Source: Octopus vulgaris
Lineage: Eukaryota
DNA: 64,000 nucleotides
Assembly: GCA_951406725.2 (NCBI GenBank)
Contig: OX597818.1
Span: 65,906,001-65,970,000 of the forward strand
Direction of reading: 5' to 3'
Shown: positions 1 through 63,510 of the stretch, one piece after another
Numbering within the stretch: position 1 is the stretch's first letter
How the letters are laid out: each line of letters starts with the position of its first letter
Notes under the pieces: generated by a model
What the model was told of the DNA's origin: nothing
The model's database searches: none
The model's input: only the letters and a program-made list of their open reading frames with translations
Program-made: the position numbers and the translations under genes

Positions 1-630
1 CGAATAATTCATAATGATTACGTGACAAAAATATATACTTTGATGTGTCTTTCTGCCGTATGTTATTTGAAATTCTCACACAGTCCCATAAAAGATATAT
101 GGAAGCCGTTAATTGAAAATAACAGCGACAATATGACACCAATATTTATTTTAATGTACCAAGAGACAGAGACAGACATTTTTTGTTAATCAAAGCTGGA
201 CGCGATATAAGTAAATAAACAGATGACATTGTCTAGCAATCTAATAATTCTACACTCATTACCTTTTCTTCACAATCATCTCTCTTATGAATGGTGTATC
301 GATAGGCAAATGTTATGAATGGAAGTTTATTCAACTGAATGGCATAATATAGATTTAATGTGATATACATTGCAACAGAGTAGACAGCATTGATTCCTTT
401 AAAATACGAAAGATAATTATCCGAACGTAATATTTACGATAACAGAAATTATTTAAAGGTATTAGAAATATGATTGTTTTTTTCTAAGTACAAAGGATCA
501 TATCAAATTAATGATGTTTAAGTAATTCCCAAATATGACCTCCTATATAGGAGCACATTCGAATGAATTTCGCCCTCCTCGCGTGTATCATATTACTATA
601 TACATATAAGAATATATACTGTGTGTATAA

Positions 631-1216
631 GTCAGCGAGCTGGCAGAAACGTTAGCACGCCGGGCGAAATGCTTAGCGGTATTTCGTCTGCGTTACGTTG
701 TGAGTTCAAATTCCGCCGAGGTCGACTTTGCCTTTCATCCTTTCGGGGTCGATAAATTAAGTACCAGTTACGCACTGGGGTCGATATAATCGACTTAATA
801 CCTATGTCTGTCCTTGTTTATCTCCTCTGTGTTTAGCCCCTTGTGGGTAATAAAGAAATAGGTATTTCGCCTGTCTTTACGTTCTGAGTTCAAATTCCGC
901 CGAGGTCGACTTTGCCTTTCATCCTTTCGGGGCTGATAAATTAAGTGCAAGTTACGCACTGGGGGGTCGATTTAATCGAATTAATCCCTTTGTCTGTCCT
1001 TCTTTGTCCACTCTATGTTTAGCCCCTTGTGGGTAGAAACGAAACAGGAATTTCGTCTGCCGTTACGTTCTGAATTCAAATTCCGCCGAGGTCGCTTTTG
1101 CCTTTCATCCCTATGGGGTCGATAAATTTAGTACCAGTTTTGTACTGGGGTGGATCCAATTGACTTGCCCAACATCACCAAAAATTCCGTGCCTTGTGCC
1201 TAGAGTAGTAAAGAAT
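631..1216 (+). mobile_element. tRNA-derived SINE family A, head-to-tail trimer
   Basis: A-box-like GAGCTGGCAGAAACGTTAG and B-box GAGTTCAAATTCC. Core GTCGACTTTGCCTTTCATCCTTTCGGGGTCGATAAA..AGTACCAG occurs three times (units ~631-860, 861-1046, 1047-1216). Many other copies in the window. Confidence 0.9.
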
Positions 1217-1615
1217 ATGTACTATATGTATGCTTCAGAAAACTGTGGTAAGAGATGCAAGTTAGGATTTGCGATGAACAGGTGATTCATATCTGGATCC
1301 AGATCTGTTTATTCAGGTCCAACAATGAACTACATTTCGGCTTACCTTCGAACTCAATCATGATATATGTTGTATGCTGTTGTTAGCTCGCGATTTGTAA
1401 CGGGTTTCTTCATAGGCTAATGGGCTAAAACCAGCACAGAATAGTAATTTAAAAGTTTACCTCACCTGTTTTAATGCAATTTCACCGATTCTGTGCTGAG
1501 GCCGTATTCACTCCCTACTCTATTTGAAAAATAATGGCATATAAAGAAACTGCAGCGATTTATTACGATTATATTATTCATGTTGTATTCTACATCCCAT
1601 AATAGCTTATTAATA

Positions 1616-11815: not shown

Positions 11816-12374
11816 TGCCCGAAATATTTGGGGAATGGGCCAGACGATTACATTGACCTCAGTACTCAACTCGTATTTAATTTATCGATCGCGAAAGGAT
11901 GAATGCAAAACCGACCTCGGCAGATTTTGAACTCAGAACGTAAAGGCAGACGAAATACCTATTTCTATTTCTTTACTACCCAGAAGGTGCTAAACACAGA
12001 GAGGACAAACAAGGACAGACAAACGTATAAAGTCGATTACATTGACCCCAGTGTGTATCTGGTACTAAATTTATCGACTCCGAAAGGATGAAAGGCAATG
12101 TCGACCTCGGCGGAATTTGAACTCAGAACGTAACGGCAGACGAAATACCTATTTCTTTACTATCCACAAGGGGCTAAACACAGAGCGGACAAACAAGGAC
12201 AGACAAACAGATTAAGTCATTACATCTACCTCAGTGCGTAAGTGATTTATCAACCCCGAAAGGATGAAAGGCAAAGTCGACCTCGGCGGAATTTGAACGC
12301 AGAAAGTAGCGGCAGACGAAATACCGCTAAGCACCTCGCCCGGCGTGCTAACGTTTCTGCCAGCTCACCGCCTT
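11816..12374 (-). mobile_element. SINE family A trimer
   Basis: Three units with the same junction (GACGAAATACC-TATTTC) as the other multimers. Confidence 0.88.
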
Positions 12375-12464
12375 CCAGCTCGACCGGCTTGGACATCTGT
12401 TTGTTATCATACACACCACACAACACACTTTCGTGACGTTTTGGAGATTACAATAATGAGAAAA

Positions 12465-25150: not shown

Positions 25151-26636
25151 ACTTCCCTTATTTTACCGGCGAGATCCTCTCCAATGGCGATAAATTTACT
25201 TACTTTCATTGCAGTAAAGAAATAAAAAATGTCAAATTAGATATCAGGAATTCAACATACCCTGACCTATTATTTACATTTTCTCTTTGATTGGTTTTGT
25301 TGTATCGTATATCACACCGTATATTACAACAAGGTACTGTATTATATTTATAAAAGATACGTTGGTGCGAAATAAAAATTCACCTGGATACATCATAATC
25401 TCTATAACATTCTTCTCCGCAATACGAAAAATACACAATGCAGTATTACGAGATGTTAAACTTGTTTTCGGCTTTAGTATAACCTTAATGAAAAATTACG
25501 TGTTAAGTCACTAACTAGTGCGCTGTATTAATATAAAATGCAGTTTCATAGCTTACAATGGCATTAATCCGAATGTTTTAGTACGTTTCTATATGATTAA
25601 TATTTATCCGTTACGCCCTACTACTTCAAGACTAATTGAAAACTTGGTACATTCAGCAAAAAAAATATCAAAATATACATTATATGTTCGCTCATCTTCA
25701 TTCCATTCGCATCATTGCACTCTATTTTATTTTAAATCCTGTAAAAATGTACAAGAAAATCGTATTTAACTATATTTGAGAATTAAAATGCTATTTTACA
25801 TGTTTCCCAATTCATATTAACAGCAAAATTGTTATATAAAAGAAAAGAACAGTGAAAGTTGCAAGGAGAATTTTGAGCTTGAATATTCTGCGAGTTGCGA
25901 AGAATATTTCAAATGCTCGAATACTTGTCTGTATTTCTAAAAAAGAAAAAGTCTTCTTCAACCCATTCTTAATCAAGATCGGATATAATTAAATACCGAT
26001 AAGTATTCAGTTTGACAGACTGTCATCATTGCAATGGTGTATGTTTGTCAAGGTTAAATAAACAAAGAGAACTGCTCGTTGATATATGGTTTTCGTTAGG
26101 AAATTCGACGGCGTTGTCTTTATGTATTAACGTCAGCATGAGATAAATATTGAATAACCATCGAGGGTAGAAATGCAATATGTATAATAAAACAAGATAT
26201 CAGATGATGACTCTAACGCTGTGAATGACTAATGCCATACGAAAGAGACAACTGTAAATATATGTCTACATCTAAGTAGACAGGTTGTCATCTAAGTAGA
26301 TATAAAATTGTTATATAAATAAATTGGTTGAAAAATCAATGGTTAGTGTGGTATGAGTAATTGATTCTTACTTGGTGCGGTCTCACAGACACAAACTCGT
26401 GCACATATACACATATGCGTCTACACATTGATAGATGAATATATATGCATACATACTTGCAGACAAATTCATAAAAGAGAAACACGAATTACGCAAATAA
26501 TGTCATAGATACATATGTTTATGGAAAAGGCAATAAGCTTGAAACGAGTCACTGAGGATATTGATACAGACATCAGGATATATGCAAATGTGTATCTATA
26601 TATAAATATACCAACATTCATATATGTATACATACA

Positions 26637-28175: not shown

Positions 28176-28199
28176 CACACATACACACAGACATAATTA

Positions 28200-28668
28200 T
28201 GCTTTCTAATCTAGGCACAAGGTCCGAAATTTTGGGGGAAGGGGCCAGTCCATTACATCGACCCAGTACGTAACTGGTACTTATTGACCCAAAATGTGTT
28301 ATTGGCAGAGTCGACCTCGGCGGAATTTGAACAATGCAGACGAAATACCTATTTCTTTACTACCCACAAGGGACAGACAAACTGATTAAGTCGATTACAT
28401 CGACCGCAGGGCAGTGCATAACTGGTACTTAATTTATCGACCCCGAAACGATGAAAGGCAAAGTCGACCACGATGGAATTTGAACTCAGAACGTTGCGGC
28501 AGACGAAATACCGGTAAGCGTTTCGCCCGGCGTGCTAACGTTTCTGCCAGCTCATCGCCTTAAGATGAAATGCAAAGTCGACTTCGGCGGAATTTGAACT
28601 CAGAACGTAACGGCAGACGAAATACGGCTAAGCTTTTCGCCCGGCGTGCTAACGCTTCTGCCAGCCTT
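28200..28668 (-). mobile_element. SINE family A multimer plus an extra head fragment
   Basis: Core repeats with two heads ending near 28560 and 28666. Confidence 0.85.
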
Positions 28669-30369: not shown

Positions 30370-30897
30370 TTAGGTTGGCAACTAAGTTACCGCGGTTTTT
30401 TTTTTTTCAATTTAAACTTTTTAAACGGGTTAATAAAAATTAACAACTAATTAATCAATAATGTATTCACCCTTGTTGTTTACAACTTATTCCCAACGTT
30501 CATCAAGATTTTCAATACCTTGTTGGTAGACATCACACGATTTCGACTCGAAAAATTGATCCAACCAAGCTGTAAAATCTGCATCAGTGTGAACGAAGCA
30601 CCGCACATAGCATTTGAAAGTGTTCGAAGGAGGTGGGAATCCGTTGGTGCCAAATCAGGAGAGTACGGCGGGTGTGGCAGCACTTCCCAGCCATGCGTTT
30701 GAATGGCTCCTTTGGTCATATTGGCGATATGAGGGCGGGCGTTTTCGTGTAGCAGAAGAACTCCATGCTGACGATTAGGTCTTTTCTCTTGAATAGCCGT
30801 GTTGAGTCGTTCCATCTGTTGAACATAGAGTTCAAGGTTGAACATTTGTTCCGTTCAAGCAATTCGTAATCCCAGTCCCACCGTATGCACAATATCG
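30370..30897 (-). mobile_element. Mariner (DD34D-type) transposon, 3' part
   Basis: TA|TTAGGTTGGCAAC TIR. Minus ORF LLLHENARPH..WEVLPHPPYSPDLAPTD, with the catalytic D of HDNA replaced by E. Confidence 0.9.
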
Positions 30898-30899
30898 AT

Positions 30900-31655
30900 C
30901 ACGGCAGCTGCTGTGATGGCCCAACTCTCCAAACGGGCATGGGACAACAATAAGCTGACCGAGACCACAAAAAGGAAGATTTACCAGGCATGTGTACTTA
31001 GCACTCTACTGTATGGAAGTGAGACTTGGATGCCATACACACGCCAAGAGCGTCGCCTAAATATCTCTCACCTGCGCTGCCTCTGGAAAATCCTTCGCAT
31101 CAAATGGCAGAATCATGTCCCCAACAAAGATGTCCTCAAGCAAGCAGGAATACCAAGTATGTTTGCACTCACGCAAAGACGTATGAGATGGCTGGGACAT
31201 GTTAGCCGTATGTAAGATGGCAGAATCCCCAAGAACATACTCTACGGAGAGCTTGCTAGGAGCACTAGGTCTGTGGGAAGACTGTTCTTACGATACAAGG
31301 ATGTTTGCAAAAGGGACATGAATGCCTGCAACATGAATATTACCGACTGGGAAGCAGTTGCCAGCAACCGTGGAGATTGGCGACGTACCGTAAAAGAGGG
31401 AACACAAAGGAGTGACATAGAGAGAGATGAGAAATGGAAAGACAAGAAAAGGCATCAACAAGAAACTATGACATTACAACCAGCCCGGAAAGGTCTTCGC
31501 TACATTTGCAGCACCTGCCAGAGGGAGTGTTTGTCCAGGGTAGGACTACACAGCCACAGCATGAAATTTATTAGGACATGAAATGTAAAAGCCGGACTAG
31601 ATTATTTTATGCGCAACTCCATTGTCTCCCGAGATAAAAAGGATGCCAACAACAA
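30900..31655 (+). mobile_element. RTE-clade LINE, 5'-truncated 3' end
   Basis: LSTLLYGSETW, RMRWLGHVSRM*DGRIPKNILYGEL, C-terminal CSTC..GLHSH, short (CAA)n tail. One in-frame stop. Confidence 0.9.
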
Positions 31656-35080: not shown

Positions 35081-35393
35081 TGTATGCGTGTGCGTGTGAG
35101 AGTGTGTATGTGTGCATGTATATGTGTGTGTGCATGTATTAAGTGTTTGTATGTGATTGTTTGCATGCATGTTTGTATAAGAGTGTTGAGAACGCTTGAC
35201 GTCGCAATGTATATATCTAATAAATAAATGCAGAAGCACTTCTGTAAACCTGTAAAGTACTAAATTACCATTCACTGTTGAATGAATTAAGTAATGTATA
35301 ACCACTGACCATACAGTTCTATATTTAAGAGATGAGGAATTATGTACATTATTTACATTTGACGGATATTTGTCCTCATCTTGCTTATTGTTA

Positions 35394-35437
35394 GCACAAC
35401 GTTTCTGCTGATATACCCTCCAGCCTTCATCAGGTGT
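35394..35437 (-). ncRNA. Minimal hammerhead ribozyme motif (family A, left arm)
   Basis: ACAC-CTGATGA-A-GGCTG-gagggtatat-CAGCA-GAAA-C-GTT-GTGC. Core intact; one mismatch each in stems I and II. Confidence 0.7.
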
Positions 35438-35548
35438 ATTGGGGAAATTTCGAACATGGTTTCTCATTCCTAAGGTATTTTTCGATGATATTATTATTGT
35501 TATCTTGCTAAACCCCAAGATTCCAAGTTCGATTCCAAGCAGTGACCG

Positions 35549-35598
<50 letters not shown>

Positions 35599-35678
35599 CG
35601 GATGATGATGATGATGATGATAATTGTAACATCGAAAAATACCTTAGGAATGAGAACCCAGGTTCGAAGTTTCCTCAA

Positions 35679-35724
35679 GACACCTGATGAAACCTGGAGG
35701 GTGTATCAGCCGAAACGTTGTGTT
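35679..35724 (+). ncRNA. Minimal hammerhead ribozyme motif (family A, right arm)
   Basis: GACAC-CTGATGA-A-ACCTG-gagggtgtat-CAGCC-GAAA-C-GTT-GTGTT. Core and stem I intact; stem II weakened. Confidence 0.7.
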
Positions 35725-36723
35725 AACAACAAGCAATATGGGGACACATATTCGTCAAATGTAAATAATGTAAATAATGTCTTCTTTGTATGGTTTGCAG
35801 CTGGTTTGTTAGTTACCTCACCAAAGGAATATTGTACGGGTAAAGAAGCCCATCTATGCTTAATCTTACTTTTGTTCGAAATAAAATTTTTAAACATTTC
35901 CAATATACATATAAGTTTCTTTCTTTTTATAGAAGGTAGCTCTATTTCTAACTGACTCTTCAGATTTTAGCATAAATATCTTCATGTGTTTTCTGCTCCC
36001 TACAGTGAAAAGCAATTTTTTTAATTTTCATTATTAATTGCTGAATTATATCTAAAGAAAATTAAAATTACTTTCAGGCTCCAGGAAATAATAAATAAGC
36101 GAGAAGCGTGAGATAGGATTGCAGAGCTCTATAAATGTATATCTGTGGAAATTAATTAAAATTATATGAAATACAAATTAAAACGAAGAATATAAGAAAA
36201 CTGTATAACGATTGAAAATACTTTTGTTTTAGAATGCCCTATAGAATTCACAATTTCATGAATAATGATATATTGGGAAAAATACTTGAAAAAAAAAAAT
36301 GAACATCATTATCGTCGTCGTCAACGTCGTCATCATCATTATCATCATCGTCATACGTTATCTGAAAACCGCTATATCATATATGCTTGAAATGATTGGA
36401 ATATGAAATGCAATAAAAAGGAAGTATATATGATATATAAATTATTTTGAGAAAAAAACCAAAGGCATGTCATTTCCATATTTCAAATTTATACGCATAT
36501 TAATGATAATAAAGGCCTGATCTCACACCCACAAAAAAAAAAAAAAAGATTTATATCAACTTCAAAATCTATAACATTATATATGATATCGCATTCCTAT
36601 TGCAAAGCTGCAAAGTAATTAACATATTTCTTGGAGAAATGAATGACTGTTGGTATGCTAAAGTACAAAATATTGGAATCTTGCAAATCAGCTTAATTTA
36701 TTTTGTAATACACTCCATGCACA

Positions 36724-45800: not shown

Positions 45801-45814
45801 TACAAATGTGTGAC

Positions 45815-45932
45815 GCTTACAGTACCTACGTTTCCCAAGCGCTCACCCACCTAAGTACTAACTATGCTCCAGGTTGCTTAACTTCGGTGATCGGACGAGA
45901 ACTGGCGCTTTCAACGTGATATGGCCGTAAGA
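45815..45932 (-). pseudogene. 5S rRNA pseudogene (near full length)
   Basis: Minus strand CTTACGGCCATATCACGTTGAAAGCGCCAGTTCTCGTCCGATCACCGAAGTTAAGCAAC..TTAGTACTTAGGTGGGTGAGCGCTTGGGAAACG..CTGTAAGC. Substitutions in helices, no oligo-T terminator, solitary. Confidence 0.85.
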
Positions 45933-51169: not shown

Positions 51170-51718
51170 GCATGAGTAGAACAATTCCATCATCTATTTT
51201 TTACACGGACTTACCTATTTGATGCAATATTGCAGCAGTTTAGAAAGGTGCTTGTTCCAAATGAGAAGTTGTCCAGTCGGTGCCACACCTATTTATGCAC
51301 CCCCTCCTGCACTTCTTCGTTTGCAGCAAACCGAAGACCTCAAGGTCCAGATTTGAGAGGTCGGAGACATTAATAGTGGAATGAGATCTGGATTGTATGT
51401 AGGATATTCTTACAATTCTAATCCCAGTTCGTCAAGGCTGTCTTCGGGATGTGCGGTTGTATGCAGGCGGGAAATTTGGCTCAAAAATAACATTTGGTTT
51501 GGCAAAAGACTTTGCCTTGAGTTACTAGTCACAGTTTATTATTTACATTATTTACATTATTTAAATTTGACGGATATTTGCCCTCATCTTGTTTGTTGTT
51601 AAGTCTACATTTCGAGTGATATAACCTCCAGCCTTCATCAGGTGTCTTGGGGAAATTTCGATCCTGGGTTCTCATTCCTAAGGTATTTTAGGATGTTATA
51701 ATGATGATGATGATGATG

Positions 51719-51776
<58 letters not shown>

Positions 51777-52440
51777 TAATAATAATAACAGAAAAATAAC
51801 TTAGGAAAGAGAACCTAGGTTCGAAATTTCCCCAAGACACCTGATCAAGGCTGGAGGGTATATCAGCGGAAACGTTGTGTTAACATCAAACTAGATGAGG
51901 ACAAATATCCGTCAAATGTAAATAATGCAAACAATGTACATAATTCCTCTTTTAAATATAGAACTGTGGCTTGAGTTTGTAGGCGAACATTTCTCTGTAG
52001 ACTACACTGATGACGCTACACCCTCTTTCCAAGTACTTTTCCAATACAGGACAATTAGTGGCCCCCAAAATAGTCAGCATCACTTTTTCGTGCGGAAGTT
52101 TGAGACTTTAGTTTAATTTTCGTTGTAGATTCCGGGTTCTTCCATTCCTTAGTCCACCTTTTGCATTCTGGTTCAAAGTGCTCAACTACCGTCTCATCTC
52201 TTGAGACTAATCACTGCAAAATAGTTTCGGCTTCACGGTTGTAGCTGTCGAGTACGCTTTCACAAACCTCCACAGAATTGCTCTTATGCACTTCACTAAT
52301 ATTTCTTGGTACCATTCCCGGATACACTTCACGGAAGCGAACTTTGTCGTGCTGAGAAGCATCAGTAATTTGTAGAGGCGAAGCTATCTCATGGATGGCC
52401 ACTGATCCGTTTCTCAAAACCATCTTACGAGATCACTGAG
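51170..52440 (-). mobile_element. Decayed mariner transposon, interrupted at 51531-51967
   Basis: N-terminal ..MVPRNISEVHK (WVPR motif), YREMFAYKLKP, and past the insertion LLPNQMLFL..EYPTYNPDLIP (YSPDLAP motif). Confidence 0.7.
51531..51967. mobile_element. Second inverted pair of HHR-bearing units around (AAT)n
   Basis: Arms ~51537-51690 (minus) and 51791-51967 (plus). HHR motifs at 51601-51646 (minus; core intact, stems decayed) and 51836-51881 (plus; CTGATCA, G8 changed to C). Confidence 0.8.
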
Positions 52441-55269: not shown

Positions 55270-56640
55270 ATGTTGTTGTTGTTGTTATTACATGATGAAA
55301 ACACTCAGCTTATTTTCCTGGATACGATGTAAACTGTCAGCTGTCCACAGCCTGAAGTCTAAAGTGATAATTCTTTGCACGTTGTGCTTCAAGAACCCTG
55401 CTAAGAATCCACGCAGTTCAAAGCTACTCTGATTTTTGTAGGTGTTCTACCTTTACATTTGTACCCATCTTTCTGAACTATGTTGCTAGTGGTGTGTTAA
55501 TACCTCCAAGTGCACCAATTACGATTGATACCACTTTGACTCTCCTCATTGAATACAACCTTCGAATTTCTCATTCAAATCGTCGTTGATATCCAGTTTT
55601 ACTTCTTCTTTCTCACTGATCCTATTCTCACCGGGGCATACTATGTCGATTCTCATGATTGTTCTTTCTTTTTTATTCACCACAACAATGTCCCGTCGTG
55701 TAATCGCATTGAATCATTGCATCTTTCGTGCAGGCTACACCACAAAAATATAATGAATATATACCTCTTATATATATATATATATCCCTCTTATATATAC
55801 CTCTTATATATACCTCTTATATATATATCCCTCTTATATATCCCTCTTATATATACCTCTTATATATACCTCTTATATATCCCTCTTATATATACCTCTT
55901 ATATATACCTCTTATATATATATATATATCCCTCTTATATATACCTCTTATATATACCTCTTATATATATATATATCCCTCTTATATATACCTCTTATAT
56001 ATACCTCTTATATATATATATATCCCTCTTATATATACCTCTTATATATACCTCTTATATATATATATATATATATATATCCCTCTTATATATGCCTCTT
56101 ATATATATATCCCTCTTATATATACCTCTTATATATACCTCTTATACATATATATATCCCTCTTATATATACCTCTTATATATACCTCTTATATATATAT
56201 ATATCCCTCATATATACCTCTTATATATACCTCTTATATATATATATATCCCTCTTATATATACCTCTTATATATACCTCTTATATATATATATATATAT
56301 ATCCCTCTTATATATACCTCTTATATATACCTCTTATATATATATATATCCCTCTTATATATACCTCTTATATATACCTCTTATATATGCCTCTTATATA
56401 TATATATATCCCTCTTATATATACCTCTTATATATATATATATCCCTCTTATATATACCTCTTATATATACCTCTTATATATATATATATCCCTCTTATA
56501 TATACCTCTTATATATGCCTCTTATACATATATATCCCACAGGATATTGTAATCTTAATTCTCGGCAACTCCTTCTGGGCAGCGCTTATATGCGTGACAC
56601 AAAAACAAACATTGTAAAGAAACAACGTTTTCTTCATATG
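55270..56640 (-). pseudogene. R4/Dong-type RLE retrotransposon 3' remnant, split by a minisatellite
   Basis: Minus strand RDIVVVNKKERT..IDIVCPGENRISEKEEVK..VKVVSIVIGALG..VEHLQK..TAWILSRVLE (PD-(D/E)xK RLE), with an (AAC/AAT)n tail near 55275. Confidence 0.75.
55758..56540. repeat. ~780-bp minisatellite of ATATATACCTCTT variants
   Basis: Seen directly: 13-mer units interspersed with longer (TA)n-TCCCTCTT units. Confidence 0.95.
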
Positions 56641-60439: not shown

Positions 60440-62900
60440 ACCTAGTATCATATGAGTGACAATGAAAATACAAGATATTGTGTATAACGGTGATAATTAC
60501 ACTGAAGCTATTGATGGTGACACTGTTACACCCGGTAGGCTCAGAGATTCTGGTCTGGTTCCAGCCTATCGATATCCTGAAAGGGACCACCACACACGGC
60601 GTAGATGGAGTAAGCAAATTAATGCTGTGGTCATGGATTGTTACTACCTGAGCAAAGCGGAGGAAGAAAATGATGCTCAAATTAGGGGAAACCGACGTCG
60701 TATGTATGTTCATTGGAGAGAAAAGGGGTCGTTTCAATTCACGGAACAAAGACAATGAGATCAAGCTCGAGAAATAAGAAAAAATGTTGGTTCACAGTAG
60801 TAGAGCTCGAAGCTATCACAAGACGGGTCATGGAAAATAGAAGCAGAGATAACAATGAAAATACACTTCTTACTAATAAGAGTAATCTCATAGCACAGGA
60901 AAGGATCAGTGGTAGTTTACTTGATGAGAGACATGTCGATGATCTAAAAGAAGACAATAAAACTAATGGTGATATGACAGATGAACAAAAGGCAATCTAC
61001 GAAAGAATAATGGTAAGACTACAGGGGAAAGATAGCGACCTTAAAAAGGTTGATCGATGGAAATTGAACAAAGAAACGAAAAATATTAATGAAATTCTGA
61101 AATACATTAGAACAAACAACATCACAGAAACAAATAATTTGATCAAGGTAGCAAGTAGCAGAAACCATGGGTGTCGATGTGAAGAAAAAGAAACATAATG
61201 GGAGTGACAGAATAAAAGATTCATGGTGGAAAAGAAGAATACAAGCAGGGTTAGATATGCTCTCGAAGGAAATCTCTGTGTTAGACCAAAAAGAGAAAGG
61301 GGAGCTTAAAAGCGAACAAACATACAGGGCGCTGAAAAGAAATTGTAATATTGAAAGAAAAGGTCTGAACGTAGTACTGGAGGAGCTGAAACAGTGCCCC
61401 GTTGCAAAGAAAGCAAATATGGTAAGATACGACCAAAGAATGAAGGGTTACCACCAGAATAGGTTATTCAGAGTAGATCAGAAGAGATTCTATAAAGAAA
61501 GAAATGGAGAGGGTACAGATGAAAAGTTGATACCAAATAACATTGAAAGTCAAAGGTTTTGCAGTGACATCTGCAGCAAAGACAAGGAGCATAAGAAGGA
61601 TGGTGAATGGTTGAAAGAACTGAAACAAAGAGTTGTCTGTCAAAAACAGGCAGAACTAATTATTTCAGTTAGGGAAGTGAAGGAAATCAGCAAACAAATG
61701 AGCAACTGGAAGGCCCGGGGACCAGATGCAGTTCAAGGCTACTGGATCAAAAGCTTTGGTGAATGTCATGCAGGAATAGCTGCGCAACTCAACACCTTGT
61801 TAAATGCCGACCAAGGTACACCAGTGTGGTTGACATTGGGTAGGATAGTGCTCTACCTGAAAAATATCGAAAAAGGCAATACGGTACACAATTACAGGCC
61901 GACATCCTGTTTGCCACTTATGTGGAAGTTATTGACGGGAATACTCTCAGATTCAATGTGCGAACAAATGCAAAAATGGAGTCCTGCCACATGAGCAGAA
62001 GGATTGCAAGCTTAAGTGGAGAGGTACCAAGGATCAACTCCTGATAGACAAAACTGTACTTAGAGACTGCAGGAGGTGGAAAAGTAACTTAGCCATGTCA
62101 AGGATCGATTATTGTAAGGTGTATGATATGATCCCACCTTCTTGGATTATGGAGCGTATGAACCTGTTTGGTATTGCATCGAATATTGGGCGATTGTTTG
62201 GAAAAAGTATGGCGACGTGGAGGACAGACCTTACAGCATATGGAAGAAGTTTAGTGACTGTAGAAATTACGGTGGGCATATTCCAAGCGGACTGCCTGTC
62301 CCCACCAATCTTTGTACTGTGCTTGATGCCACTAACACTGATTCTGAGGAAAGCAAAAGCTGGGTATGTGTTTAAAAGCCGCCAACAAAAAATCAACTAT
62401 TATTTATTTATGGATGACCTCAAACTTTATGGTAAGGACGAAGCCCAAGTCAGTTCCCTCGTTGATACAGTGTATACCTTCAGTACTGATATTGGAGTGG
62501 ATTTCGGTCTGAGAAAGTGTAGTGTGTCAGTCTTTAAGAGAGGCAAAATGAAATGTATGGACGGGCTAACGTTAACGTGGGGGAGGTAATGAAGCAGATA
62601 GCAGAGACGGGAAGTTAAGCAGTTGTGGACGATAAAAAAGTTAGCAGTCATGCCAATAATTGACGGGAACCCGGAAACAGTGATTAAAAATCTCGAGAAA
62701 TACGTGGAATAAATAGGGGTGCAATGAGTGTGGAGCACTTGCAGAATACAACACTGTTTGAACCGCTCGAATACTCCGGTGGGTGCTCGGAAATTAAGAG
62801 GTGTTACCCCCGTTCATTGGTAGTTAACAGCTGACACAAGTGCATCTCCAGCGATAGAAGGACTGCAAAGGCAAGGAAGATAACATTAATAATAATAATG
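60440..62900 (+). mobile_element. R4/Dong-clade non-LTR retrotransposon, decayed and internally deleted
   Basis: N-terminal RRRWSKQINAVVMDCYYLS..FTEQR.DQAR. RT motifs [59 protein letters not shown]. Jumps to RLE C-terminus (EVKQLW..TARILRWVL) and ends in an (AAT)n tail. Frameshifts and stops. Confidence 0.88.
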
Positions 62901-63083
62901 ACATCGAAAAAGACCTTAGGAATGAGAAGCCGGGTTCGAAATTTCCCCCAAGACACTTGATGAAGGCTGGAGAGTATATCAGCTGAAACGTTATGTTAAC
63001 AACAAGGAAGATGAGGACAAATATCCGTCATATGTAAATAATGTGAAAAATGTACATAATTCATCTTTTAAATATAGAACTGT
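62901..63083 (+). mobile_element. Solo HHR-bearing unit (family A)
   Basis: CATCGAAAA..CCTTAGGAATGAGAA..to..AAATATAGAACTGT. HHR at 62952-62997: GACAC-TTGATGA-A-GGCTG..CAGCT-GAAA-C-GTT-ATGTT (C3 changed to U). Confidence 0.8.
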
Positions 63084-63089
63084 AATACT

Positions 63090-63510
63090 AAGCAGAAGAC
63101 CAAGGAATTCACTTGGCTCTGATCCTTGTCACACATTCTCAAATCATCCATTAAGGTTGATTGTTTGATATTTGCATTTTAGTGGGTATCTTAGGTTCAT
63201 TTTCCTAAGAACCAATGTCTGGGGTATCATACAGAGAAATAAGGCAACGGGGACGAGGTATCGCCGTGGAAAATCCCTCTTCTGATACTCATGTTGCCCA
63301 ATTTTCCTTTTCCGTTCATTCCAAGCGCTACTAAATTCATTGCTATAGTAACTGCCTTAAGATGACACATCTTTTCGATTTCGAAAGGGAAATACTTATA
63401 TTTTCTTAATTTAGCAAATTCTTTATACGAGATATTATGGTCACATAGTAAATTCATGTCAATCAATAAACAAACTTTATTGCATTGTAAAATTATTATT
63501 GCGAGTAAAA
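63090..63510 (-). pseudogene. R4-type RLE fragment fused in frame to an RT motif 4-5 fragment
   Basis: CLLIDM..DHNISYKEFAKLRKYK..EIEKMCHLKAVTI..VALGM..KG is followed directly by LGNMSIRRGIFHGDTSSPL. Confidence 0.7.

What the first reader, a model, noticed from the sequence alone, without database searches (positions are those of the whole stretch)
35313..35780. Non-coding element made of two divergent hammerhead ribozymes in a long inverted repeat around (AAT)n
Seen: five copies of one unit at three loci. Their consensus GACAC-CUGAUGA-A-GGCUG-loop-CAGCC-GAAA-C-GUU-GUGUU has full stems I and II and a palindromic AACGUU in place of stem III. Each copy has different private mutations, so the master was intact. 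Established: PLE pLTRs carry minimal HHRs with palindromic stem III that cleave as dimers, and inverted pLTR arrangements are known. Inference: a short non-autonomous ribozyme retroelement (retrozyme or PLE-SINE-like) that repeatedly forms palindromes. Either strand's transcript would hold one sense HHR that the antisense arm can mask, giving ~150 bp of dsRNA (possible ADAR or siRNA substrate).
Basis: partly seen in the sequence, partly recalled or inferred. Interest (0 to 1): 0.82.

Follow-up and report, generated by a model that had tools for sequence, protein, structure and literature searches.

The report
Octopus tRNA-headed SINE with Penelope hammerhead
The palindrome is a decayed, head-to-head insertion of an abundant ~280-base repeat, shared with octopus genomes, that joins a tRNA-like promoter to a hammerhead-bearing end and is likely copied by Penelope-like retrotransposon enzymes rather than by the LINE enzymes that normally move such repeats.

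Summary
In detail: five copies at three loci, two loci as inverted pairs, each with a minimal type I hammerhead motif. None of the five keeps the whole master fold, and the two arms of one locus are no more alike than copies at different loci, so the hairpin looks like a by-product. Contigs from four public runs extend it to a full head with A and B boxes and join it through (AAT)n to the hammerhead body. The family also shows Penelope-like (PLE) insertion marks: two 3' ends 28-33 bases apart, inverted truncated pieces abutting the head, and partial tandems. Best reading: a tRNA-derived SINE-like element likely mobilised by a PLE. No partner PLE was found. Opposite-strand pairs of minimal hammerheads are already published (PMC4209133). 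A tRNA-headed SINE with a PLE end was not found in ten paper searches; the 1994 octopus SINE paper could not be read. The scan earlier noted a ribozyme-free tRNA-like repeat with PLE marks in another genome (e1-7881736).

The parts
35312..35503 (-). Locus 1 left arm: inverted, headless copy of the body with the long 3' end
   Evidence: family 3' ends cluster at 35311/35312
35312..35339 (-). Optional ~28-33-nt 3' tail, present on the left arm and absent from the right arm
   Evidence: listed loose ends at 35311/12 (606 in X1, 661 in X5) and 35339/45 (384, 481)
35393..35438 (-). Minimal type I hammerhead motif, left; core intact, G10.1-A11.1 mismatch, stem I 3 of 5 pairs; predicted cut after 35398
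35511..35549 (+). 3' half of a tRNA-like head (B box at 35527-35535); the 5' half with the A box is missing here but present in other copies
   Evidence: B box; high depth, loose ends and joints at 35511
35550..35627 (+). Expanded linker: (AAT)16, then (GAT)7, between head and body
35628..35780 (+). Locus 1 right arm: body with the short 3' end (no tail)
35679..35724 (+). Minimal type I hammerhead motif, right; core and stem I intact, both inner stem II pairs broken; predicted cut after 35719
51514..51530 (.). Locus 2 left copy of a candidate 17-bp target-site duplication (13 of 17 match to 51968-51984)
   Evidence: sequence; 11-of-13 core reached by 2 of 3000 random flank pairs
51531..51700 (-). 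Locus 2 left arm (hammerhead motif 51601-51646, damaged; 16-nt deletion in the tail)
51701..51788 (+). Locus 2 centre: (GAT)n(AAT)n linker, no head left
51789..51967 (+). Locus 2 right arm with tail (hammerhead motif 51836-51881, G8C)
51968..51984 (.). Locus 2 right copy of the candidate target-site duplication
62884..63084 (+). Locus 3 solo headless copy with tail (hammerhead motif 62952-62997, C3U), directly behind a broken RLE-type LINE

Best explanation
[quoted passage not shown] Shown: the three-part build, the A and B boxes, two preferred 3' ends, and inverted truncated pieces abutting the head at several loci. Inferred steps: (1) Pol III starts at the head of a master copy and runs through the body into flanking DNA. 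(2) The hammerhead has no stem III, so it would stay uncut in a monomeric transcript; a cut would part the promoter from the copying start, 53-59 or 86-87 nt further on. (3) A PLE protein would bind the 3' module and start reverse transcription inside the RNA at one of two sites, giving the short or the long end. (4) Copying from both sides of one target break would leave two 5'-truncated copies head to head, tails outward. (5) The inserted copies then decay neutrally and the linker expands by slippage. The dsRNA hairpin is a by-product.
For: Head: summed contig depth over 35515-35540 is 1.0-1.1 million against 57.6 on the unique flank in run X1 (not a copy number). Loose ends before 35511 in 33 (X15) and 21 (X19) contigs, agreement 0.8, carry an A box (TGGCRTAGTGG). 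Three of the four printed head extensions begin 37-38 nt before 35511, which makes a ~76-nt head with seven bases before the A box and a 7-nt anticodon-like loop (read by eye). Head-body link: locus 1 itself, plus 11 contigs (6 in X1, 5 in X5) in 4 of the 15 joint rows shown (78 rows not shown). PLE marks: (a) hammerhead with the extra base between 9 and 10.1, G10.1-C11.1 and palindromic 15.2-16.2, the features listed in PMC4209133; (b) two 3' end classes 28-33 nt apart, and a tail at one end only at locus 1, as for the 30-40-bp PLE tail; (c) 5 contigs in 3 joint rows, plus one more in table 5c, with an inverted 3' piece cut at 35362, 35372, 35375 or 35382 followed by the head; (d) 'goes back' joints that fit partial tandems. 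Locus 2 lies within a candidate 17-bp duplication, so one event. The 3' module is shared by several families with different upstream parts, one with tandem units (6 of 84 hits, spacing 38-43 codons). Non-coding: 82 of 84 hits are <=183 aa and none has an RT or GIY-YIG motif. Host: the best hit and one other are named Octopus bimaculoides. Penelope-like elements fill 6.83% of the O. vulgaris genome (PMC13282606 supplement). In an Anolis PLE, reverse transcription starts inside the RNA at two sites and does not need hammerhead cleavage (PMC11167929).
Against: No autonomous PLE sharing this 3' module was found (no genome held; no RT-bearing hit). Only one of five window copies keeps any head. The head-body joints rest on few contigs, all in the DNA-labelled runs among the rows shown, and the tables are truncated. 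What follows the head in most copies was not seen, because the stretch laid ended at 35552. Locus 1 has no target-site duplication. Rfam does not recognise the head remnant, and its T-stem does not pair in this copy. The cut-to-end distances (53-59 and 86-87 nt) are shorter than the ~85-92 nt that the Anolis numbers give for one start site. A T4 run lies in the tail of 2 of 5 copies and of the five-copy majority; it would stop Pol III about 12 nt before the long end, although the left arm lacks it and one search lists no variant there. Pol III transcription, cleavage and mobilisation were not tested.
Confidence: 0.62

Rival explanations
1. Two independent things: ordinary 5'-truncated pLTR fragments of a coding PLE that favour (AAT)n, sometimes landing in the (AAT)n tail of an unrelated simple tRNA-SINE.
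For: The Anolis PLE endonuclease prefers ATT (PMC11167929). PLEs show microsatellite insertion bias and heavy 5' truncation (PMC8557442). Head depth is about a quarter of the depth at the 5' part of the body. Four of five window copies have no head.
Against: All five copies begin at the same point behind (AAT)n, and their 3' flanks are not (AAT)n. Depth falls abruptly at 35489-35503 and loose ends there are (TAT)n; random truncation of a long element would not give this. Inverted pieces abut the first base of the head in independent contigs, so the head was part of what was inserted. No coding sequence lies upstream in any hit.
Confidence: 0.15
2. A tRNA-headed SINE moved by a LINE (Dong-R4-like or RTE) whose body merely carries a captured PLE end.
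For: SINEs by definition use a LINE partner (PMC3531059). An RLE-type LINE fossil ends about 95 nt before copy 3. Dong-R4 and RTE are abundant in octopus. Locus 2 has a 17-bp duplication.
Against: The element does not end in a simple repeat or poly(A) but at two fixed sites. Inverted pieces and partial tandems are PLE marks. A second fossil of the same LINE type ends at 55388 with a 3' region and tail unlike the body. Copy 3 fits the LINE having inserted into the (TAA)n linker (TAA targeting by Dong is recalled, not tested).
Confidence: 0.1
3. A non-LTR retrozyme: cut by its own hammerheads from tandem transcripts, circularised and reinserted; solo and inverted copies are dead offspring.
For: The hammerhead appears conserved among source copies: no non-CpG variant above 5% at 35 constrained positions against 13 of 116 elsewhere (p = 0.03; 0.05 with the tail counted; 0.24 for the whole motif; hand-assigned after seeing the table). 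A related family shows tandem units with a motif in each. Retrozymes are proposed PLE derivatives (bioRxiv 10.64898/2026.07.22.740005).
Against: No head-to-tail pair in the window. Element ends lie at the head and 53-87 nt past the cut site, not at the cut site. Minimal hammerheads were inactive as monomers and weak as dimers in vitro (PMC4209133).
Confidence: 0.08
4. The inverted pair is kept as a regulatory device: a maskable ribozyme or a dsRNA source for ADAR or siRNA pathways.
For: Very stable predicted hairpin that buries the sense hammerhead. Two of three loci here are inverted pairs.
Against: Both hammerheads are damaged. The arms are no more alike than unrelated copies. CpG decay in the core (9-21%) matches CpG decay outside it (16-19%). 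Inverted pairs are a normal PLE product.
Confidence: 0.05

Closest known systems
PLE pseudo-LTRs with minimal hammerheads (Cervera and de la Pena 2014, PMC4209133; Craig et al. 2021, PMC8557442; Frangieh et al. 2024, PMC11167929)
   Same: Same ribozyme variant, optional ~30-nt tail, inverted 5'-truncated copy next to the 5' end, partial tandems. Opposite-strand motif pairs 100-700 bp apart are described in Schistosoma mansoni.
   Different: No RT/GIY-YIG frame. The 5' end is fixed and is a tRNA-like head with A and B boxes; the passages read mention no such head.
Schistosoma Sm-alpha / Sj-alpha SINE-like elements (PMC6765202 and PMC2770079, passages)
   Same: tRNA-related Pol III repeat with a hammerhead, tens of thousands of copies.
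   Different: Sm-alpha carries the canonical motif that cleaves multimeric tandem transcripts, with the promoter at the 3' end of the cut unit. Here the motif is the minimal PLE type, copies are dispersed, the head is the 5' end, and the insertions bear PLE marks.
Animal non-LTR retrozymes (PMC7229834; bioRxiv 10.64898/2026.07.22.740005)
   Same: Short, non-coding, type I hammerhead, proposed PLE-derived and PLE-mobilised.
   Different: Defined as tandem repeats with a motif in each unit; neither text mentions Pol III or a tRNA head (term searches). This family is dispersed or inverted; a relative does form tandems.
tRNA-derived SINEs, including the three octopus retroposons of Ohshima and Okada 1994 (title seen in reference lists only; OR1 and OR2 are cited as CORE-SINEs in PMC4824008 and PMC4758252)
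   Same: Length under 700 bp; tRNA-derived head with A and B boxes; non-coding; very abundant.
   Different: The 3' end looks PLE-derived rather than LINE-derived and there is no simple-repeat tail. Whether this family is one of the 1994 families or a Repbase/Dfam entry could not be tested.
Helenus and Ajax (Kojima 2024, PMC10886601, passages)
   Same: A non-autonomous element of a class other than LINE that took a tRNA-derived Pol III promoter and kept the boxes, not the fold.
   Different: Those are LTR elements; this would be the PLE counterpart.

Membership tests
PLE-type minimal hammerhead (PMC4209133) | Core CUGANGA ... GAAA-N-N-U-H with helix I of 4-5 bp and a long helix II | tested here: met
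   Five-copy majority: 5-bp stem I, 6-bp stem II, pair probability 0.98-0.99; helix II is a little shorter than the 7-8 bp given for Schistosoma; 0 of 5 single copies intact
PLE-type minimal hammerhead (PMC4209133) | Unpaired base between 9 and 10.1; G10.1-C11.1; palindromic 15.2-16.2 | tested here: met
   C11.1 in 75% of family depth
PLE-type minimal hammerhead (PMC4209133) | Cleaves only as a dimer | not testable with these tools
   palindrome duplex -3.5 kcal/mol; no assay
Autonomous PLE | ORF with RT and GIY-YIG endonuclease | tested here: not met
   no such frame at the three loci or among 84 hits
PLE-type insertion | Optional 30-40-bp tail (two 3' ends) | tested here: met
   ends 28-33 nt apart; tail at one end only at locus 1
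PLE-type insertion | Inverted 5'-truncated copy at the 5' end; partial tandems | tested here: met
   2 of 3 window loci; joints at four truncation points and 'goes back' joints
PLE-type insertion | 3' end shared with an autonomous PLE of the same genome | not testable with these tools
   no genome held; two short motifs absent from the PMC8557442 supplement
SINE (definition in PMC3531059) | Under 700 bp, non-coding, dispersed in many copies | tested here: met
   ~76 + linker + ~185 nt; 34,824 and 31,947 contigs laid in two runs
SINE (definition in PMC3531059) | Head from tRNA, 7SL or 5S with internal A and B boxes | tested here: met
   B box in the window; A box and spacing from contig ends (read by eye); Rfam gave no match on the half head; parent tRNA not identified
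SINE (definition in PMC3531059) | Transcribed by Pol III | not testable with these tools
   only contigs were available; they show no strand or ends
SINE (definition in PMC3531059) | Reverse transcribed by a partner LINE; simple-repeat 3' tail | tested here: inconclusive
   no simple-repeat tail; the neighbouring RLE LINE does not share the end; other LINEs not examined. Filed as SINE-like, not as a member in the strict sense
Non-LTR retrozyme | Head-to-tail tandem with a hammerhead in each unit | tested here: not met
   none in the window; genome-wide not examined; met by a related family in 6 of 84 protein hits
Non-LTR retrozyme | Circular RNA of unit length | not testable with these tools
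   no raw RNA reads listed
Octopus retroposons of Ohshima and Okada 1994 | Sequence match to one of the three families | not testable with these tools
   paper not held; SINEBase supplement not readable

The most novel reading that the evidence does not exclude
The first SINE-PLE pair: a tRNA-promoter (Pol III) SINE that took the hammerhead-bearing 3' module of a Penelope-like element and spread to the order of 10^4-10^5 copies in octopus genomes by PLE-type internal priming. Several sister families share the same ~130-nt module, which would then be the minimal cis signal for PLE copying, with the hammerhead fold kept as a protein-binding or copy-number-sensing element.
Probability: 0.45. Interest if true: 0.75.

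Novelty: new variant of a known kind. Interest (0 to 1): 0.55.

Why it matters
SINEs are defined as parasites of LINEs. A large tRNA-headed family with Penelope ends would extend that rule to the third class of retroelement. It would give a natural ~280-nt substrate for two open questions: what RNA signal a PLE protein needs in trans, and why PLEs keep a hammerhead that barely cuts. It may also reclassify part of the 250 Mb of 'unclassified SINE' and 191 Mb of 'Penelope-like' DNA in the Octopus vulgaris annotation (PMC13282606 supplement). Ready-made inverted pairs could supply long dsRNA in an animal known for heavy A-to-I editing (recalled), but that is untested. The locus itself is an ordinary dead insertion.

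Tried and rejected
No whole genome is held, so copy number, the share of inverted pairs and the partner PLE could not be counted. Pattern scans of viral, metagenome and prokaryote collections: 0 matches. Rfam: only a 5S rRNA at gathering. At E<=10 the miRNA-precursor matches are far below their cut-offs and reflect the hairpin; nothing on the half head or at locus 3. ARAGORN: 0 genes. Folding single copies gave no signal (z -0.19 to 0.79), as expected for decayed minimal motifs. A word-index protein search with the frame across the centre and right arm found nothing. The 60-codon open frame across the body is not taken as a gene: its hits are short unrelated predictions without a convincing Pfam match (19 of 84 scanned); two long hits (P0116, P0168) are chance. 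Locus 1: no direct duplication (2985 and 2694 of 3000 random pairs do as well) and no inverted flank extension (1128 of 3000). The locus 2 duplication was first seen by eye and then tested. The sixth descriptor hit at 25961 was rejected. The idea that the body is the 3' UTR of the adjacent RLE LINE was rejected. Expression: no RNA holder listed. Two runs guessed to be RNA hold 3,568 and 1,803 family contigs, but contigs show no strand, ends or level. Editing: one A>G site reaches 19% in run X19 against 0.1-0.3% in the others, but X19 is another organism without matched DNA, so no claim is made. The stretch left out the (AAT)n and the right arm, so an empty site and the full palindrome were not checked in reads. 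Scan look-ups by sequence, place and relatives gave nothing; one search listed eight unrelated hammerhead notes, not used. Not held: Albertin 2015, Lunse 2017, Ohshima and Okada 1994. Supplements of the retrozyme preprint and of SINEBase were not seen and may bear on novelty; Repbase and Dfam could not be searched.

Full report
Observation. The window is AT-rich and full of microsatellites. blastn with the two arms finds five copies of one ~185-nt body at three loci: two head-to-head pairs (35312-35780, 51531-51967) and one solo copy (62884-63084). A relaxed hammerhead descriptor gives 6 hits against a mean of 0.40 in 100 shuffles; five are these copies and one is unrelated. The five-copy majority forms stems I and II with probability 0.98-0.99 and has the extra A before stem II, G10.1-C11.1 and a palindrome in place of stem III. 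These are the traits that PMC4209133 lists for minimal PLE hammerheads (parts 1-2 of 4 read). Contigs of the family carry the restoring letter at the three places where the left arm departs from that fold (95%, 87-95% and 75%).

The copies are dead. None of the five keeps the whole fold. Each has 9-12 private differences and only 2 difference cells are shared. Arms of one locus are 89.3% and 86.8% identical; copies of different loci are 85.5-91.9% identical, so nothing has kept the arms matched. CpG sites decay in the core (9-21%) as outside it (16-19%). The hairpin is real as geometry (-231 kcal/mol) and would bury 41-42 of 46 positions of the sense motif, but no transcript across it was shown.

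Between the left arm and (AAT)16 lies a 39-nt stretch with a B box. I laid four public runs (two guessed DNA, two guessed RNA, three organisms, all contigs) on 35190-35552 at 80% likeness. In run X1 the summed depth is 57.6 on the unique flank, 0.7-8.8 million on the body and 1.0-1.1 million on this stretch. The tool warns that this is no copy number; the ratios (2x10^4 to 1.5x10^5) and three loci in 64 kb only suggest the order of size. Loose ends before 35511 (33 and 21 contigs, agreement 0.8) add an A box. Three of four printed extensions start 37-38 nt upstream, which gives a ~76-nt head with tRNA-like spacing (read by eye; parent tRNA not identified; Rfam does not score the half head). 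Eleven contigs in 4 of the 15 joint rows shown join the end of the head to the start of the body; 78 rows were not shown. The right arm at this locus is therefore a 5'-truncated head-linker-body copy, and the left arm an inverted, headless one.

Marks of Penelope-type insertion. Family 3' ends fall into two classes, at 35311/12 (606 and 661 listed ends in X1 and X5) and 35339/45 (384 and 481), 28-33 nt apart. At locus 1 the left arm has the long end and the right arm the short one. PMC8557442 (passages) describes a 30-40-bp tail often present at one end only and an inverted 5'-truncated copy next to the 5' end. PMC11167929 (parts 1-2 of 4) shows that the tail lies between two internal start sites of reverse transcription and that hammerhead cleavage is not needed in vitro. 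One search also shows other loci in which an inverted 3' piece, cut at 35362, 35372, 35375 or 35382, is followed by the head (5 contigs in 3 rows plus one in table 5c; X1 and X5 may share loci), and joints that go back, as partial tandems would. Locus 2 lies in a candidate 17-bp duplication (13 of 17; 2 of 3000 random pairs score as well), so the pair was likely one event; locus 1 has none.

Relatives and host. A profile-free search of 1.84 billion proteins with the 60-codon frame across the body gave 84 hits. 82 are at most 183 aa and none has an RT or GIY-YIG motif; they are predictions that run through related repeats. They fall into several families that share the hammerhead and the ~90 nt behind it but differ upstream; 6 of 84 hold two motifs 38-43 codons apart. 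At the stem II codon pair, 22 of 75 motifs read R/R and 17 read W/Q, which would be C-G versus U-A; this is inferred from protein letters and can arise by CpG decay. Two of ten hits looked up carry names, both Octopus bimaculoides, one a predicted dystrobrevin beta isoform. The window is thus likely from an octopus; the species was not determined. Copy 3 follows a broken LINE whose relatives have CCHC and PD..D motifs (41 of 42 long homologues). A second fossil end of that type at 55388 is not followed by the body, so the body is not its 3' UTR.

Mechanism. Shown: build, boxes, two ends, inverted and tandem forms, decay. Inferred: Pol III transcription from the head; no cleavage of the monomer, which keeps promoter and copying start on one RNA; binding and internal priming by a PLE protein; copying from both sides of one break to give head-to-head pairs. 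Internal priming would let a Pol III transcript with a ragged trailer yield exact ends. A weak hint that source copies kept the fold: no non-CpG variant above 5% at 35 constrained positions against 13 of 116 elsewhere (p = 0.03; 0.05 with the 27 tail positions; 0.24 for the whole motif; assigned by hand after seeing the table, and low-depth positions may inflate the outside count). Against the reading: no partner PLE found, few contigs behind the head-body link, a T4 run in the tail of 2 of 5 copies, and no test of transcription or cleavage.

Comparison and novelty. Pol III SINE-like repeats with a canonical hammerhead are known (Sm-alpha; passages of PMC6765202 and PMC2770079). Retrozymes as PLE derivatives are proposed (bioRxiv 10.64898/2026.07.22.740005, parts 1 and 3 of 5 plus passages; PMC7229834, passages). 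tRNA promoters in non-autonomous LTR elements are known (PMC10886601, passages). Ten searches found no tRNA-headed SINE with a PLE end and no hammerhead-bearing octopus repeat. Two octopus repeat papers do not contain the word ribozyme (PMC13282606, passages and whole supplement; PMC8967140, passages and supplement search). I also saw passages of PMC4758252, PMC4824008, PMC3531059 and bioRxiv 10.1101/596502. The library lacks most subscription papers, Repbase and Dfam. So abundant a repeat is probably catalogued under some name, possibly among the three 1994 octopus retroposons, which I could not read. The scan's note e1-7881736 reports a tRNA-like, ribozyme-free repeat with PLE marks in another genome; I did not test it.

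Verdict. The feature is real. The locus is an ordinary dead insertion and the regulatory-hairpin idea has no support. The family behind it is a likely PLE-mobilised, tRNA-headed SINE-like element: a new variant of a known kind, interest 0.55.

Noticed in passing
window 60561-62791 (+), 63098-63478 (-), 55388-55692 (-): Three broken pieces of RLE-type non-LTR retrotransposons (Dong-R4-like by recalled motifs). The longest has an internal deletion after the RT and ends in (TAA)n directly before copy 3, as if inserted into its linker.
   Followed up: partly
P0094-P0097, P0101, P0104, P0154: Sister families share the hammerhead and 3' module; one forms head-to-tail units of about 43 codons (~129 nt) with a motif in each, a retrozyme-like form. 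Most of these motifs have a purine at core position 7. Source organisms unnamed.
   Followed up: partly
P0131 (XP_052825882.1): A predicted Octopus bimaculoides dystrobrevin beta isoform begins with a translation of this repeat's hammerhead region: exonisation or an annotation artefact.
   Followed up: no
window 45814-45932 (-): A single full-length 5S rRNA match (83.8 bits), alone among repeats: orphan gene or pseudogene.
   Followed up: no
window 612-1217, 2281-2719, 11817-12377, 28193-28665 and about a dozen more: A second, more abundant short repeat (15-18 partners in the window) that forms partial tandems of period 176-190 and 114; partial tandems in a SINE-like repeat may point to a similar mechanism.
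   Followed up: no
window 30480-31581: A DDE transposase-like fragment (weak Pfam match, E 0.003) back to back with what looks like the C-terminal part of an RTE-type LINE (recalled motifs).
   Followed up: no
window 55757-56535: A 780-bp minisatellite of 13-bp units with a 47-bp higher-order period.
   Followed up: no
window 35447: A>G at 19% of depth in run X19 (guessed RNA, organism E) against 0.1-0.3% in the other three runs: subfamily difference or editing, not separable here.
   Followed up: no
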